Part shown: positions 6,915-51,550 of the stretch, in pieces
How positions within the stretch are numbered: the stretch's first letter is position 1
Layout: every line of letters starts with the position of its first letter
Assembly (NCBI GenBank): GCA_052327205.1
Contig: CM126202.1
Coordinates: 390,290,001-390,354,000 of the forward strand
DNA from: Somniosus microcephalus
Taxonomy: Eukaryota
Direction: 5' to 3'
Length of the DNA: 64,000 nt
The notes under the pieces: model-generated
Database searches by the model: none
What the model was told of the DNA's origin: nothing
Seen by the model: the letters and a program-made list of their open reading frames with translations, nothing else
Translations under genes and position numbers: made by a program

Positions 6915-7101
6915 AAATAACAACAGAAAACGCTGGAAACACTCAGCAGACCAGGCAGCATCCGTGGAGAGAGAAACACAGTTAACATTTCAGGTCGAAG
7001 ACCCTTCGTCAGAACTGAGAAAAAAGCAGGAAATGAAACGGATGAAAAAGCAAGTTTGGGGGAGGGGATGAAAGAACAAAAGGGAAGGCCTGTGAGAGGT
7101 G
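6915..7101 (-). mobile_element. Short Penelope-like terminal fragment (family 1)
   Basis: Matches the 3' end of the GIY-YIG-bearing element at 15215-15845. 7-bp TSD ATGATCG at 6908-6914 and 7102-7108. Confidence 0.8.
6980..7016 (-). ncRNA. Minimal type I hammerhead ribozyme motif
   Basis: Minus strand: AGUU-CUGACGA-A-GGGUC(UUC)GACCU-GAAA-UG-UU-AACU. Helix III has a U-G wobble. Confidence 0.65.
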
Positions 7102-7354
7102 ATGATCGGTTGGCTAGCTTTGCAGGTATTGGATCATTCCACTGATGGCAAGATTTATGAGATATTGGCAATTGAAGAAAGCTGAAAGTTGCTAAAGATG
7201 AGCCCTGAAGAGAGTTTTGATTTTAGCGCCATATAGCAGCGTTGGTAGTTCCACAGAAGATTCTAATCCTTATCTGCAGGTTTTGCCATAGCTTTTGTGA
7301 AAGGTTGGTCATGACTAATCCAGCAGGACTGATTCTATAGTTCACTTCCTCATT

Positions 7355-7628
7355 AATAGCCATCATAGTGGACAATGCTATCAACATTGTAGGAACACAT
7401 CACCTCCAAGCAGCGCACTATCCTGACTTGAACATTTATTGCTGTTCCTTCATTGTCGTTGAGTCAAAATTTTAGAATTCTCTACCTAACCTGATTGTGG
7501 CAGCATCATCACCACTGGTTCAAGCCAGCAGCTCACCACCACCACCACCACCTTAAGGCAACCAGGGATGGGCAATAAATGTCACTTTACCAATGTTCCC
7601 TACATGCCAAGAGCAATTAAAAAAAAAA
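7355..7628 (+). mobile_element. Degenerate 3' end of the CR1/L2-group LINE family
   Basis: Similar to the reverse complement of 1936-2130 (CCTGACTTG...GCTGTTCCTTCATTGTC...CAGCTCACCACCACC), ending in an A-rich tail. Confidence 0.65.
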
Positions 7629-48339: not shown

Positions 48340-48914
48340 ACCCTCTCTGTTACCTCATCAAAAAACCCGATCAAGTTAGTCAAACACGATTTGCCCTTAA
48401 CAAATCTGTGCTAGCTTGCCTTTATTAGTCCACACTTGTCCAAGTAGCTGTTCATTTTCTTCCGGATTATTGTTTCTGAAAGCTTCTCCACCACTGACGT
48501 TTAACTGAATGCCCTGTAATTGCCAAGTTTATCCTTCTCCCTTTTTTGAACAGGGGTGTAACATTTGCAATCCTCCAGCCCTCTGGCACCACCCCTGTAT
48601 CCAAGGTGGATTGGAAGATTGCGGCCAGCACCTCTGCAATTTTTACCCTTGCTTCCCTCAGCAACCTTGGCTGCATCCCATCCGGACTGGATGATTTATC
48701 CACTTTAATTAACGGCAGCCTTTCTAGTACCTCCTTATTATCTATTTTTATCTCACCTAGTATCCCAGCAACCTCTTCATTTACCATAGCTTTGGCAAAG
48801 TCCTCTTCCTTGGTACCAACAAAACTCATTCAGTAACTTAGCCATGCCTTCTGCCTCTGCTAATAGTTCTCCATTTTGGTCCCTAATTGGTCCCACTGCT
48901 CCTCTGACAACCCT

Positions 48915-51550
48915 AGGGAGCTAGGAAAGAGATTAAAAAGCAGGACCTCAAAGGTCTGAGACCAATGTCCTCGTGGAGGGGTTAGCTAGTGCTGCTGGGG
49001 AGGGTTTAAACTAATTTGGCAGGGGATGGGCACCAGGATGTAGCATTAAAAAGGAGAAACAATGTGCACAAAGGATGGGGGGAGACAAATAGCACTAGAG
49101 TAAGAAATAGTATGGAATTAGGTGGGGTCATACTAAGAGAATACAAGAAGATCTAAGATAGGTTTACAGTGCATGTGTGTGAATGCACGAAGTGTGGTAA
49201 ATTAGGTTGGTGAGCTGCAGGCACAATTAGCCACATGGGAATATGATGTCGTGGCGATAACGGAGACCTGGCTCAAAAAAGGGCAGGATTGGGTACTAAA
49301 TATTCCTGGATATAAGATGTTTAGGAAAGAAAGGGAAGGGAAGAAAGGAGGTGAAGTGGCAGTATTGATGAAGGAGAATATTACAGTGCTGGAGAGAGGA
49401 TGTCCTGTAGGAGTCAAGGACAGAATCTATTTGGTTAGAGTTAAGAAACAATAGAGGTGCCGTTACACTACTCGGTGCCATTACACTACTAGGCCACCAA
49501 CTAGTGGGAAGGATATAGAGGAGCAAATTTGCAGGGAAATTACAGAGAGGTGCAAGAACTATGGAGTAGTGATATATATACTAATATAGATTGGGATAGT
49601 AATAGTGTAAAGGGCAGTGGGGGGGAATAATTTCTAAAGTGTGTTCAGGAGAACTTTCTTGATCAGTACGTTTTCGGCCCAAAGAGGAAAGAGGCATTGC
49701 TGGATCTGGTTCTGGGGAATGAGGTGGGTCAACTGGAGCAAGTGTCGGGTGAACATTGAGGGAACAGTGATTATAGGGTCATAAGGTTTAGATTAGCTAT
49801 GGAAAAGGACAGGGAGCAATCTACAGTTTAAAAAAAAACTTAATTGGAGGAAGACCAATTTCAGTGGATTGAGATTGGATCTGGCCTGAGTAAATTGGAA
49901 TCAAAGATTGGCAGCAAAACTGTAATTAAACAGTGGGCTGCCTTTAAAGAGGAGTTGGTTCGGGTACAGTTGAGGTACATTCCCACAAGGGAGTAAGGAA
50001 GGGCAACCAAAGTCAGAGCTCCTTGGATGACGAAAGAGATAGAGTAAGATGAAGCAGAAAAAGGGGGCATATGACAGATGTCAGGTTGAGAATACAAGTG
50101 AGAACCGGGCTGAATATTGAAAGTTCAGAGGGGAAGTGAAAAAGGAAATAAGAGGGGCAAAGAGAGAGAATAGATTGGCAGGTAACATAAAAGGGAATCC
50201 AAAAGTCTTCTATAGGCATATAAATAGTAAATGGGTACGAAGAGGAAGAGTGGGGCCAATTAGGGACCAAAATGGAGACCTACGCATTGAGGCAGAGGGC
50301 ATGACTGAGGTACTAAATGAGTACTTTGCATCTGTCTTTACCAAGGAAGAAGATGCTGCCAAAGTCATAGTGAAAGAGGAGGTAGTTGAGATACTGGATG
50401 GGATAAAAATTGATAAAGAGGAGGTACTAGAAAAGCTGGCTGTACTTAAAGTAGATAAGTCACCAGGACCGGATTAGATGCATCCTAGGATGCTGAGGGA
50501 AGCAAAGGTAGAAATTGCAGAGGTACTGGCCATAATCTTCCAGTCCTCCTTTGATACGGGGGTGGTGCCAGAGGACTGGAGAATTGCAAATGTTACACCC
50601 TTGTTCAAAAAAGGGTGTAAGGATAAACCCAGCAACTACAGACCAGTCAGTTTAACCTCGGTAGTGGGGAAGCTTTTAGAAATGATAATCCGGGACAAAA
50701 TTAACAGTCACTTGGACAAGTATGGATTAATTAAGGAAAGCCAGCATGGATTTGTTAAAGGCAAATCGTGTTTAACTAACTTGATTGAGTTTTTAGATGA
50801 GGTAACAGAGGGGATTGATGAGGGCAGTGCGGTTAATGTGGTGTACATGGACTTCCAAAAGGCGTTTGATAAAGTGCCACATAATAGGCTTGCCAGCATA
50901 GTTGAAGCCCAAGGAATAAAAGGGACAGTGGCAGCATGAATATGAAATTGGCTAAGTGACAGGAAACAGAGAGTAATGGTGAACGGTTGTTTATTGGACT
51001 GGAGGAAGGTACACAGTGGTGTACCTTTTGTTCTTTCATCCCCTCCCCCATTCCCCAGCCGCTAAACTTGCTTTAAAATCTGTTCCTTTTCCTTCTTGTT
51101 TCCAGTTCTGACAAAAGGTCTTCGACCTGAAACGTTAACTCTGTTTCTCTCTCCACGGATGCTGCCTGGCCTGCTGAGTTTTTCCAGCACTTTCTGGTAT
51201 TTCAGATTTCCAGCATCCGCAGTATTTTGCTATTGTACACAGTGGTGTTCCCCAGGGGTCGGTACTAGGACCACTGCTTTTTGTGATATATATAAATGAC
51301 TTGGACTTGGGTGTACAAGGCTCAATTTCAAAATTTGCAGATGCCACAAAACTTGGAAGTATAGTGAACAGTGAGCAGGATAGTGATAGACTTCAAGAAG
51401 ACATAGACAGGCTCGTCGAATGGGCGGACATGTGGCAGATGAAATTTAATGCAGAAAAGTAAAGGGTACAACTCTAAAGAGGATGCATGAACAGAGAGAC
51501 CTGGGAGTATATGTGTACAAATTGTTGAAGGTGCCAGGGCAGGTTGAGAA
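48915..51550 (+). mobile_element. Long CR1 LINE fragment (ORF1 end, APE, RT)
   Basis: AITETWL..LNIPGY, IKGNPKVFY, KSPGPD, QHGFVKGKSCLTNL, YMDFQKAFDKVPH and KFADATKL. Confidence 0.92.
51023..51234 (+). mobile_element. Short Penelope family 1 terminal insertion, hammerhead with G8A change
   Basis: 14-bp TSD GTACACAGTGGTGT at 51009-51022 and 51235-51248. The core reads CTGACAA at 51108-51114. Confidence 0.87.

What the first reader, a model, noticed from the sequence alone, without database searches (positions are those of the whole stretch)
6915..51234. Family of tiny TSD-flanked Penelope-derived inserts built around a minimal hammerhead ribozyme
Seen: eight copies of one sequence (6915, 8680, 15215, 25521, 27105/28746, 29643, 33006, 51023) end at nearly the same 3' point. 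Six have their own 7-14 bp target-site duplications, and five of those six are only 100-212 bp long. The shared block is AGUU-CUGANGA-helix II-GAAA-CG-UU-AACU, and only the 15215 copy reaches GIY-YIG coding sequence. Known: Penelope-like elements carry minimal type I hammerheads with a palindromic helix III that are thought to act as dimers. Inference: these are either a SINE- or retrozyme-like non-autonomous RNA mobilised by Penelope RT, or extreme 5' truncations that cluster near the ribozyme. The 29643 copy starts almost exactly at helix I and the 8680 copy inside the core.
Basis: partly seen in the sequence, partly recalled or inferred. Interest (0 to 1): 0.72.

Follow-up and report, generated by a model that had tools for sequence, protein, structure and literature searches.

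The report
Truncated Penelope retrotransposon ends with hammerhead
These short inserts are cut-off tail ends of a common Penelope-like jumping gene in a shark-like genome; they carry its known tiny ribozyme motif as a passenger, so the pattern is mostly ordinary.

Summary
The eight copies are real. Six have target-site duplications (7-14 nt), and five of those are 100-212 bp. A minimal type I hammerhead fold is present far above chance (5 hits against a mean of 0.02 in shuffles). The copies are best read as ordinary 5'-truncated ends (solo pseudo-LTRs) of an endonuclease-positive, probably Neptune-type, Penelope-like element (PLE). They have two 3' ends about 35 nt apart (the known PLE 'tail'), one fold-back copy, 5' parts colinear with the ORF-bearing copy, and at least two intermixed subfamilies. 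Their 5' ends lie at -16, -31, -34, -64, -114, -118, about -203 and -567 from the predicted cut site. None lies at the cut, so the templates were uncleaved RNA. No copy is tandem and none has a SINE head, so retrozyme and SINE readings fail. Only 3 of 8 keep a fully canonical ribozyme core and helices. That could mark a transcription start or an RT stop. Eight copies and one read lay cannot settle it.

The parts
6915..7101 (-). Copy A: 187-bp PLE 3' end, short 3' end, 5' end at -118; canonical min-HHR (core at 7012, predicted cut 6984|6983); 7-nt TSD
8680..8812 (-). Copy B: 133-bp PLE 3' end with tail, 5' end at -31; HHR core mutated (G5/A6); 7-nt TSD
15215..15845 (-). Copy C: 631-bp 5'-truncated PLE (end of GIY-YIG ORF, about 400-nt 3' UTR/pLTR, min-HHR with core at 15307, cut 15279|15278); 12-nt TSD; small private deletion just upstream of helix I
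   Evidence: a related organism's run suggests an empty site
15613..15845 (-). Broken C-terminal GIY-YIG endonuclease coding fragment, stop near 15613-15615
   Evidence: tblastn E 6e-23 to P0002 and 3e-20 to P0003; those proteins hit Pfam GIY-YIG only weakly, below the curated cut-off; the fragment itself has no Pfam hit
25505..25640 (.). Copy D: fold-back of two PLE 3' ends joined at their truncated 5' ends (minus arm 25505-25568 with part of the tail; plus arm 25569-25640 starting at about -16); no HHR core, no TSD
   Evidence: folds as a long hairpin, -62.8 kcal/mol
27105..28940 (+). Copy E: PLE 3' end with tail, split into 27105-27165 and 28746-28940 by a 1.58-kb insertion; HHR variant with U3-A8 and a GUC site; 5' end at about -203 in copy C's coordinates; no TSD found
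27166..28745 (.). Secondary insertion into copy E, with terminal inverted repeats and a 3-nt duplication (Harbinger-like by recalled criteria)
29643..29742 (-). Copy F: 100-bp PLE 3' end, 5' end at -34 (upstream edge of helix I); core intact, helix II damaged; 10-nt TSD
33006..33138 (+). Copy G: 133-bp PLE 3' end, 5' end at -64; canonical core at 33041, cut 33069|33070; 13-nt TSD
36626..36760 (-).
51023..51234 (+). Copy H: 212-bp PLE 3' end with tail, 5' end at -114; HHR G8 mutated; 14-nt TSD; inserted in a LINE RT fragment

Best explanation
The inserts are dead-on-arrival, 5'-truncated copies of the 3' end (pseudo-LTR) of an abundant endonuclease-positive Penelope-like retrotransposon, probably Neptune-type, with at least two subfamilies. 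Inferred mechanism, from the PLE literature: the element's GIY-YIG endonuclease nicks genomic DNA, and its RT starts at one of two internal sites about 35 nt apart on an uncleaved element RNA. This gives the short or tailed 3' end. RT usually stops within 100-250 nt, and a staggered second nick gives the 7-14-nt TSD. Occasional fold-back gives inverted copies such as D. The minimal hammerhead lies 65-100 nt from the priming sites, so nearly every recognisable fragment carries it as a passenger. In a solo insert it has no cis partner for the dimeric fold and decays. Shown here: anatomy, TSDs, nested truncations, tail, fold-back, subfamily mixing, core decay. Inferred: every enzymatic step.
For: The 5' ends are spread (-16, -31, -34, -64, -114, -118, about -203, -567) and fit a shifted exponential (KS p=0.91, n=8, low power). 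The 5' parts of A, E, G and H are colinear with the 3' UTR of ORF-bearing copy C. C is 0.91 identical to F and G over 88 shared columns, more than any short-short pair. The two 3' ends, 32-36 nt apart, match the optional 30-40-bp tail, and copy D matches the inverted 5'-truncated copy (PMC8557442 passages). In a purified PLE, RT starts at two internal sites that bound the tail, and unprocessed RNA is the dominant template (PMC11167929). Solo min-HHRs in the thousands, 'probably related to truncated PLEs', are described for metazoans including fish, coelacanth and Xenopus (PMC4209133); 69,735 contigs of a same-species run were laid on copy C. Well-covered ORF bins carry 3-7 million summed word depth against 14-18 million at the 3' terminus (not a copy number), so ORF-reaching copies are common. 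Both 3'-end classes appear as loose ends. The tailed copies read 26 codons without a stop from an ATG after the hammerhead in 3 of 3 cases, like the first 12/22 codons in the pLTR/tail of rotifer Pen2a.
Against: 2 of 8 copies end at -31/-34, and a copy of a second family ends at about -42, which is tighter than random truncation needs. In one search the minor-strand RNA depth of run X22 falls from about 4,600 at the terminus to about 180-970 upstream and then stays level through UTR and ORF, which looks more like a step than a smooth decay; run X21 does not show this as clearly, and subfamily divergence confounds it. Rare joints show head-to-tail tandem short units (15312 to 15211; 2 contigs, summed depth 603). 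No RT domain or full-length element was recovered, so the clade is not established.
Confidence: 0.72

Rival explanations
1. A large share of the short inserts are not random truncations but complete 'run-off' cDNAs. In a pLTR-ORF-pLTR transcript the tail priming site also occurs in the upstream pLTR. RT priming there reaches the RNA's 5' end (a transcription start just upstream of helix I), or stalls at the folded hammerhead, and gives a discrete solo-pLTR class about 100-135 bp long. This can coexist with the best explanation.
For: Copies F (-34), B (-31) and, from a second family, P (about -42). PLE transcripts start in the upstream pLTR (PMC2377424 passages). In vitro, PLE RT primes internally on a pLTR-ORF junction RNA, and product length follows the RNA's 5' end (PMC11167929). 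Step-like depth in one RNA run, and 735 contigs in X1 and 477 in X8 with long loose ends at 15310.
Against: 6 of 8 copies end elsewhere. The 15310 pile-up coincides with copy C's private deletion. Its low consensus agreement (0.42) is matched by window copies that do continue upstream (0.30-0.50 pairwise), so it is not evidence of a peak. No RNA start was listed near 15310 (table 6). In D. virilis the start lies about 120 nt upstream of helix I (my inference).
Confidence: 0.18
2. The short copies come from an independent non-autonomous RNA (SINE-like, or a non-LTR retrozyme monomer) made from tandem master arrays elsewhere in the genome and mobilised in trans by PLE proteins.
For: Small size and TSDs. 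Rare tandem joints of about 100-nt units in one DNA run. Retrozyme families are reported as pLTR derivatives, with dispersed monomers and in one chondrichthyan genome (bioRxiv 10.64898/2026.07.22.740005).
Against: 0 of 8 copies are tandem. Lengths vary continuously, there is no head sequence, and short copies do not group apart from C. The hammerhead is minimal, not the canonical type I of retrozymes (PMC7229834 passages). RNA depth on the major strand of X22 at the terminus (about 3,300-3,600) is no higher than over most UTR and ORF bins (mostly about 2,400-5,200, some lower), although small RNAs are lost in such libraries.
Confidence: 0.07
3. The hammerhead cleaves the RNA and the cleaved 3' product is the template, which sets the 5' ends.
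For: A cleavage-competent-looking fold is kept in A, C, G, P and perhaps E.
Against: 0 of 8 copies (0 of 9 with P) begin at +1. The main arm of every copy keeps sequence 5' of the scissile bond; only the minus arm of fold-back D begins downstream, at about +23. No loose-end peak at 15277/15278 is among the 24 of 2,289 rows shown, and no RNA begin or end is listed there. Cleavage was dispensable for insertion in vitro.
Confidence: 0.03

Closest known systems
5'-truncated insertions / solo pseudo-LTRs of C-terminal EN+ Penelope-like elements (Neptune-type; PMC8557442, PMC3846280)
   Same: C-terminal GIY-YIG fragment, hammerhead in the pLTR, optional 30-40-bp tail, heavy 5' truncation, inverted truncated copy, variable TSD, apparent first codons of the ORF in the pLTR and tail
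   Different: Nothing shown to differ in kind. The very short median length (about 155 bp to the short 3' end) and a possible excess of ends at helix I were not described in the texts I read. RT and linker are absent from the window.
Minimal hammerheads (min-HHR) of metazoan PLEs (Cervera and de la Pena 2014, PMC4209133)
   Same: Short helix I (3-5 bp), bulged base after A9, palindromic minimal helix III, mostly solo copies across the genome; the U3-A8 core variant seen in copy E was reported for schistosome PLEs
   Different: The main family has A-U or G-U at 10.1-11.1 in 5 of 7 copies that have the motif, rather than the conserved G-C, and U at position 17 in 6 of 7. Helix II is 5 bp.
PAc (Poseidon) of Anolis carolinensis (Frangieh et al. 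2024, PMC11167929)
   Same: Two 3' ends bounding a tail; hammerhead near the apparent ORF start; uncleaved RNA as template
   Different: Different clade by linker motif of the closest relatives (inferred). In PAc the ATG lies within the hammerhead; here the candidate ATG is about 23 nt after the cut.
Non-LTR retrozymes (PMC7229834; bioRxiv 10.64898/2026.07.22.740005)
   Same: Small, non-coding, type I hammerhead, pLTR-related, TSDs longer than 4 bp
   Different: Retrozymes are tandem 150-450-bp units with canonical hammerheads and give monomeric or circular RNAs. These copies are solo, minimal and variable in length.

Membership tests
EN+ Penelope-like element (5'-truncated copy) | C-terminal GIY-YIG endonuclease at the 3' end of the ORF | tested here: met
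   Copy C matches the C-terminal part of GIY-YIG-bearing proteins at E 6e-23 and 3e-20 and ends in a stop near 15613
EN+ Penelope-like element (5'-truncated copy) | Hammerhead motif in the pLTR | tested here: met
   5 descriptor hits against a mean of 0.02 in 200 shuffles; 4 are in this family
EN+ Penelope-like element (5'-truncated copy) | Optional 30-40-bp tail | tested here: met
   3 of 8 copies (B, E, H) plus one arm of D extend 32-36 nt further; both end classes in read data
EN+ Penelope-like element (5'-truncated copy) | Variable 5' truncation, variable TSD, inverted truncated copies | tested here: met
EN+ Penelope-like element (5'-truncated copy) | Telomerase-related RT and partial-tandem full-length element | not testable with these tools
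   No copy reaches RT; no genome is held
Neptune clade | CX2-5CxxC linker upstream of GIY-YIG, and RT phylogeny | tested here: inconclusive
   Copy C is truncated downstream of the linker. 4 of the 5 relatives inspected by hand (P0001, P0003, P0012, P0065) carry the linker; P0002 is a fusion that lacks that region. Nematis also has a linker.
Non-LTR retrozyme | Tandem units, at least two with complete hammerheads | tested here: not met
   0 of 8 in the window; only rare tandem joints genome-wide
Non-LTR retrozyme | Canonical type I hammerhead | tested here: not met
   Minimal fold; no Rfam hammerhead at E<=5
Non-LTR retrozyme | Monomeric linear or circular RNAs from self-cleavage | not testable with these tools
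   Standard RNA-seq reads show no begin or end at the cut, but such libraries lose small RNAs
SINE | Fixed 5' end with its own head or promoter | tested here: not met
   Eight different 5' ends; 5' parts colinear with the PLE 3' UTR
SINE | Short copies form their own lineage apart from the partner element | tested here: not met
   C-F and C-G identity 0.91 exceeds every short-short pair; 88 columns, 7 copies, so weak
Active hammerhead ribozyme | Self-cleavage as monomer or dimer | not testable with these tools
   Fold only; the active fold lies 8-20 kcal/mol above the MFE of the -40..+65 context

The most novel reading that the evidence does not exclude
PLEs make a discrete 'strong-stop'-like product. 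RT primes at the tail site of the upstream pLTR of the tandem transcript and runs off the RNA 5' end (or stops at the folded ribozyme) just upstream of helix I. The genome then fills with about 100-135-bp TSD-flanked hammerhead-headed inserts whose 5' ends map the element's transcription start. Two unrelated families in this window each have a copy ending there.
Probability: 0.18. Interest if true: 0.5.

Novelty: new member of a known kind. Interest (0 to 1): 0.24.

Why it matters
As it stands, this is one more vertebrate example of solo minimal hammerheads left by truncated PLEs, and a caution that such inserts mimic SINEs. The density is high (9 PLE ends in 64 kb, about 140 per Mb if typical), so a shark-type assembly would give a very large, dated record of PLE priming and stopping sites. 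That record can test two open points without bench work: whether hammerhead-cleaved RNA is ever the template in vivo (these copies say no), and whether solo pLTRs arise by priming in the upstream pLTR.

Tried and rejected
No whole genome is held, so the genome-wide 5'-end plot could not be made. Rfam at E<=5 gave 6 matches, all below gathering score, and no hammerhead. A 3'-block pattern found 0 matches in metagenome and viral contigs. A hammerhead-side pattern gave 1 locus, L001; it shares only the 20-21-nt match and has no PLE protein match, so I rejected it as chance. The run search listed no RNA holder; this is no evidence on expression. The loose-end pile-up at 15310 was rejected as evidence of a 5'-end peak, because it sits at copy C's own deletion and continuing window copies agree no better. 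A 3' splice acceptor at helix I was considered: 4 of 4 copies intact there show a pyrimidine tract plus CAG, and D. virilis has an intron ending at helix I. It is left as a weak lead, because the AG is also required by helix I pairing, copy C has no donor-like site in its UTR (2 matches, both in the ORF), and no such RNA joint is among the 15 of 135 joints shown. Pfam finds nothing in copy C's fragment. The post-hammerhead peptide had no meaningful match among the 150 fetched proteins (best E 0.43). A search of the PAc supplements found no hits in 3 files; its Fig. S2 coverage plots, which could bear on 5' ends, could not be seen. Five literature searches listed no paper on short hammerhead-bearing PLE inserts in sharks or on 5'-end clustering at the hammerhead, judged from titles and abstract starts; Repbase, Dfam and subscription journals were not searchable.
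Full report
Observation. BLAST, alignment and an HMM built from the copies recover the eight copies and no further one below E 0.8. Six have TSDs: A 6915-7101 (187 bp, 7 nt), B 8680-8812 (133, 7), C 15215-15845 (631, 12), F 29643-29742 (100, 10), G 33006-33138 (133, 13) and H 51023-51234 (212, 14). 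In 5000 random pairs with similar boundary slack, matches of at least 7 nt occurred in 2.5% and of at least 10 nt in 0.04%. D (25505-25640) and E (27105-28940, split by a 1.58-kb element with inverted ends and a 3-nt duplication) have no TSD. In a related organism's run, both flanks of C have the same depth (20.6) and a 364-nt contig stops aligning at 15214.

The hammerhead. Rfam sees none. The topology is type I: helix I 5' strand, core, bulge, helix II, GAAA, a four-base palindromic helix III, U17, the cut, then the helix I 3' strand. The cut therefore lies about 30 nt downstream of where the motif starts. B and H have broken cores, F has a damaged helix II and D has no core. So 3 of 8 are fully canonical. 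The main family has A-U or G-U at 10.1-11.1 rather than the G-C that PMC4209133 calls highly conserved.

Host and element. The 75-residue frame of C matches the C-terminus of GIY-YIG-bearing proteins (255 hits at E<=0.001; tblastn E 6e-23). The one named hit is from the shark Heptranchias perlo at 64%, so a chondrichthyan-like host is inferred. Four of five relatives inspected carry the CX2-5CxxC linker of Neptune/Nematis. C itself is truncated below the linker, so 'Neptune-type' is a lead. No RT of this element is in the window.

3' ends. There are two: +64 to +69 from the cut (A, C, F, G) and +98 to +102 (B, E, H; partly D's minus arm). Both show as loose ends in DNA and RNA runs. This is the optional 30-40-bp PLE tail (PMC8557442), which in the purified anole element lies between two internal RT start sites (PMC11167929). 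The three tailed copies read 26 codons without a stop from an ATG about 23 nt after the cut. This resembles rotifer Pen2a, whose pLTR holds the first 12 codons and 22 with the tail. D is a fold-back of two ends, like the inverted truncated copies of PLEs.

5' ends. Relative to the cut: -16 (D plus arm), -31 (B), -34 (F), -64 (G), -114 (H), -118 (A), about -203 (E, in C's coordinates) and -567 (C); P is at about -42. None is at +1. The copies that begin near the ribozyme keep the whole core upstream of the scissile bond, so their templates were uncleaved. [quoted passage not shown] Lengths fit a shifted exponential (KS p=0.91; n=8, low power, parameter estimated from the same data). The 5' parts of A, E, G and H are colinear with C's UTR. 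C is closer to F and G (0.91) than any short copies are to each other (at most 0.89; 88 columns). These results are expected of truncation and not of a SINE.

Genome-wide look (one lay on copy C). 69,735 contigs of a same-species run and 33,764 of a relative's run were laid. Summed word depth in X1 is 14-18 million over the last 60 nt, 7.7 million over the hammerhead, 1-4.3 million over most of the UTR and 0.65-7.4 million over the ORF; the tool warns this is no copy number. ORF-reaching copies are therefore common, and short ones dominate. No loose-end peak at the cut site is among the 24 of 2,289 rows shown, and no RNA begin or end is listed there. A pile of loose ends at 15310 (735 contigs, agreement 0.42) looked like a 5' peak at helix I. 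It coincides with C's private deletion, and window copies that continue upstream agree only 0.30-0.50 over the same 30 nt, so I do not count it. Against my reading: one RNA run's minor strand drops from about 4,600 to 180-970 upstream of the hammerhead and stays level, and rare joints show head-to-tail units of about 100 nt (2 contigs, depth 603). The family is transcribed in both RNA runs, ORF included. 62-64% of laid reads run on into unlike sequence, which reflects both flanks and C's divergence.

Mechanism. Most likely (0.72): target-primed reverse transcription by the PLE protein, starting at either tail site of an uncleaved RNA and stopping early, with the hammerhead carried because it lies within 100 nt of the priming sites. 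Solo copies lack the cis partner that the minimal fold needs (PMC4209133, PMC6765202), and they decay. Rival (0.18, not exclusive): priming in the upstream pLTR with run-off at the RNA's 5' end or a stall at the ribozyme, giving a discrete class. PLE transcripts do start in the upstream pLTR (PMC2377424), and three copies from two families end at -31 to -42. An earlier AI note on another shark-like genome (e1-7858714) reports nearly all ends there; that is an unchecked lead, and here only 2 of 8 fit. Independent SINE or retrozyme (0.07) and cleaved template (0.03) fail the tests above.

Comparison and verdict. Solo min-HHRs from truncated PLEs are known in the thousands per vertebrate genome, and a 2026 preprint notes that most PLE insertions are 5'-truncated with a single terminal repeat. 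The finding is a new instance of a known kind; whether this family is already in Repbase or Dfam could not be checked. Interest 0.24. The only surprise left is the possible excess of ends at helix I.

What I read: PMC4209133 parts 1-2 of 4; PMC11167929 parts 1-2 of 4 plus a supplement search without hits (its figures not seen); bioRxiv 10.64898/2026.07.22.740005 parts 1-3 of 5 (supplements not seen); passages only of PMC8557442, PMC3846280, PMC7229834, PMC2377424 and PMC6765202; Lunse et al. only as a reference entry. Hammerhead numbering, the NUH rule and the Harbinger label are recalled.

Noticed in passing
window 36626-36760 (-): Short end of a second PLE-like family with an intact minimal hammerhead (G10.1-C11.1), starting about 10 nt before helix I and inserted in a Harbinger-associated sequence; single copy in the window.
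   Followed up: partly
window 7015-7035, 28795-28811, 33020-33038, 51085-51105: A pyrimidine tract plus CAG ends at the helix I 5' strand in 4 of 4 copies intact there, resembling a splice acceptor like the D. virilis intron end; no donor was found in copy C's UTR.
   Followed up: partly
window 8680-8759 (-), 28862-28940, 51160-51234: A 26-codon open frame from an ATG after the hammerhead through the tail; the deletions in G and H in this block are both 3 nt. Possibly the ORF start.
   Followed up: partly
window 28814-28841: Copy E's hammerhead has U3-A8, G10.1-C11.1 and a GUC site, matching a core variant reported for schistosome PLEs; it could be a subfamily trait or decay.
   Followed up: no
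window 27166-28745: 1.58-kb insertion with terminal inverted repeats and a 3-nt duplication inside copy E.
   Followed up: partly
window 54545-55855 (-): 436-aa open frame with a DDE_Tnp_4 domain (E 2.5e-35), a Harbinger-type transposase that looks intact, with a candidate partner ORF at about 52172-54168.
   Followed up: no
window 39411-42724 (+), 4556-5740, 25751-26917: Near full-length LINE with RT (RVT_1 E 3e-36) and two 3' fragments about 95% alike, so a young family.
   Followed up: no
window 13580-13909: Two tandem 165-bp GC-rich copies, 94% alike, next to a long pyrimidine tract.
   Followed up: no
joints 15312-15211, 15245-15211, 15259-15310, 15272-15309: Rare head-to-tail tandem and inverted joints of the terminal unit elsewhere in the genome; candidate seeds of retrozyme-like arrays.
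   Followed up: no
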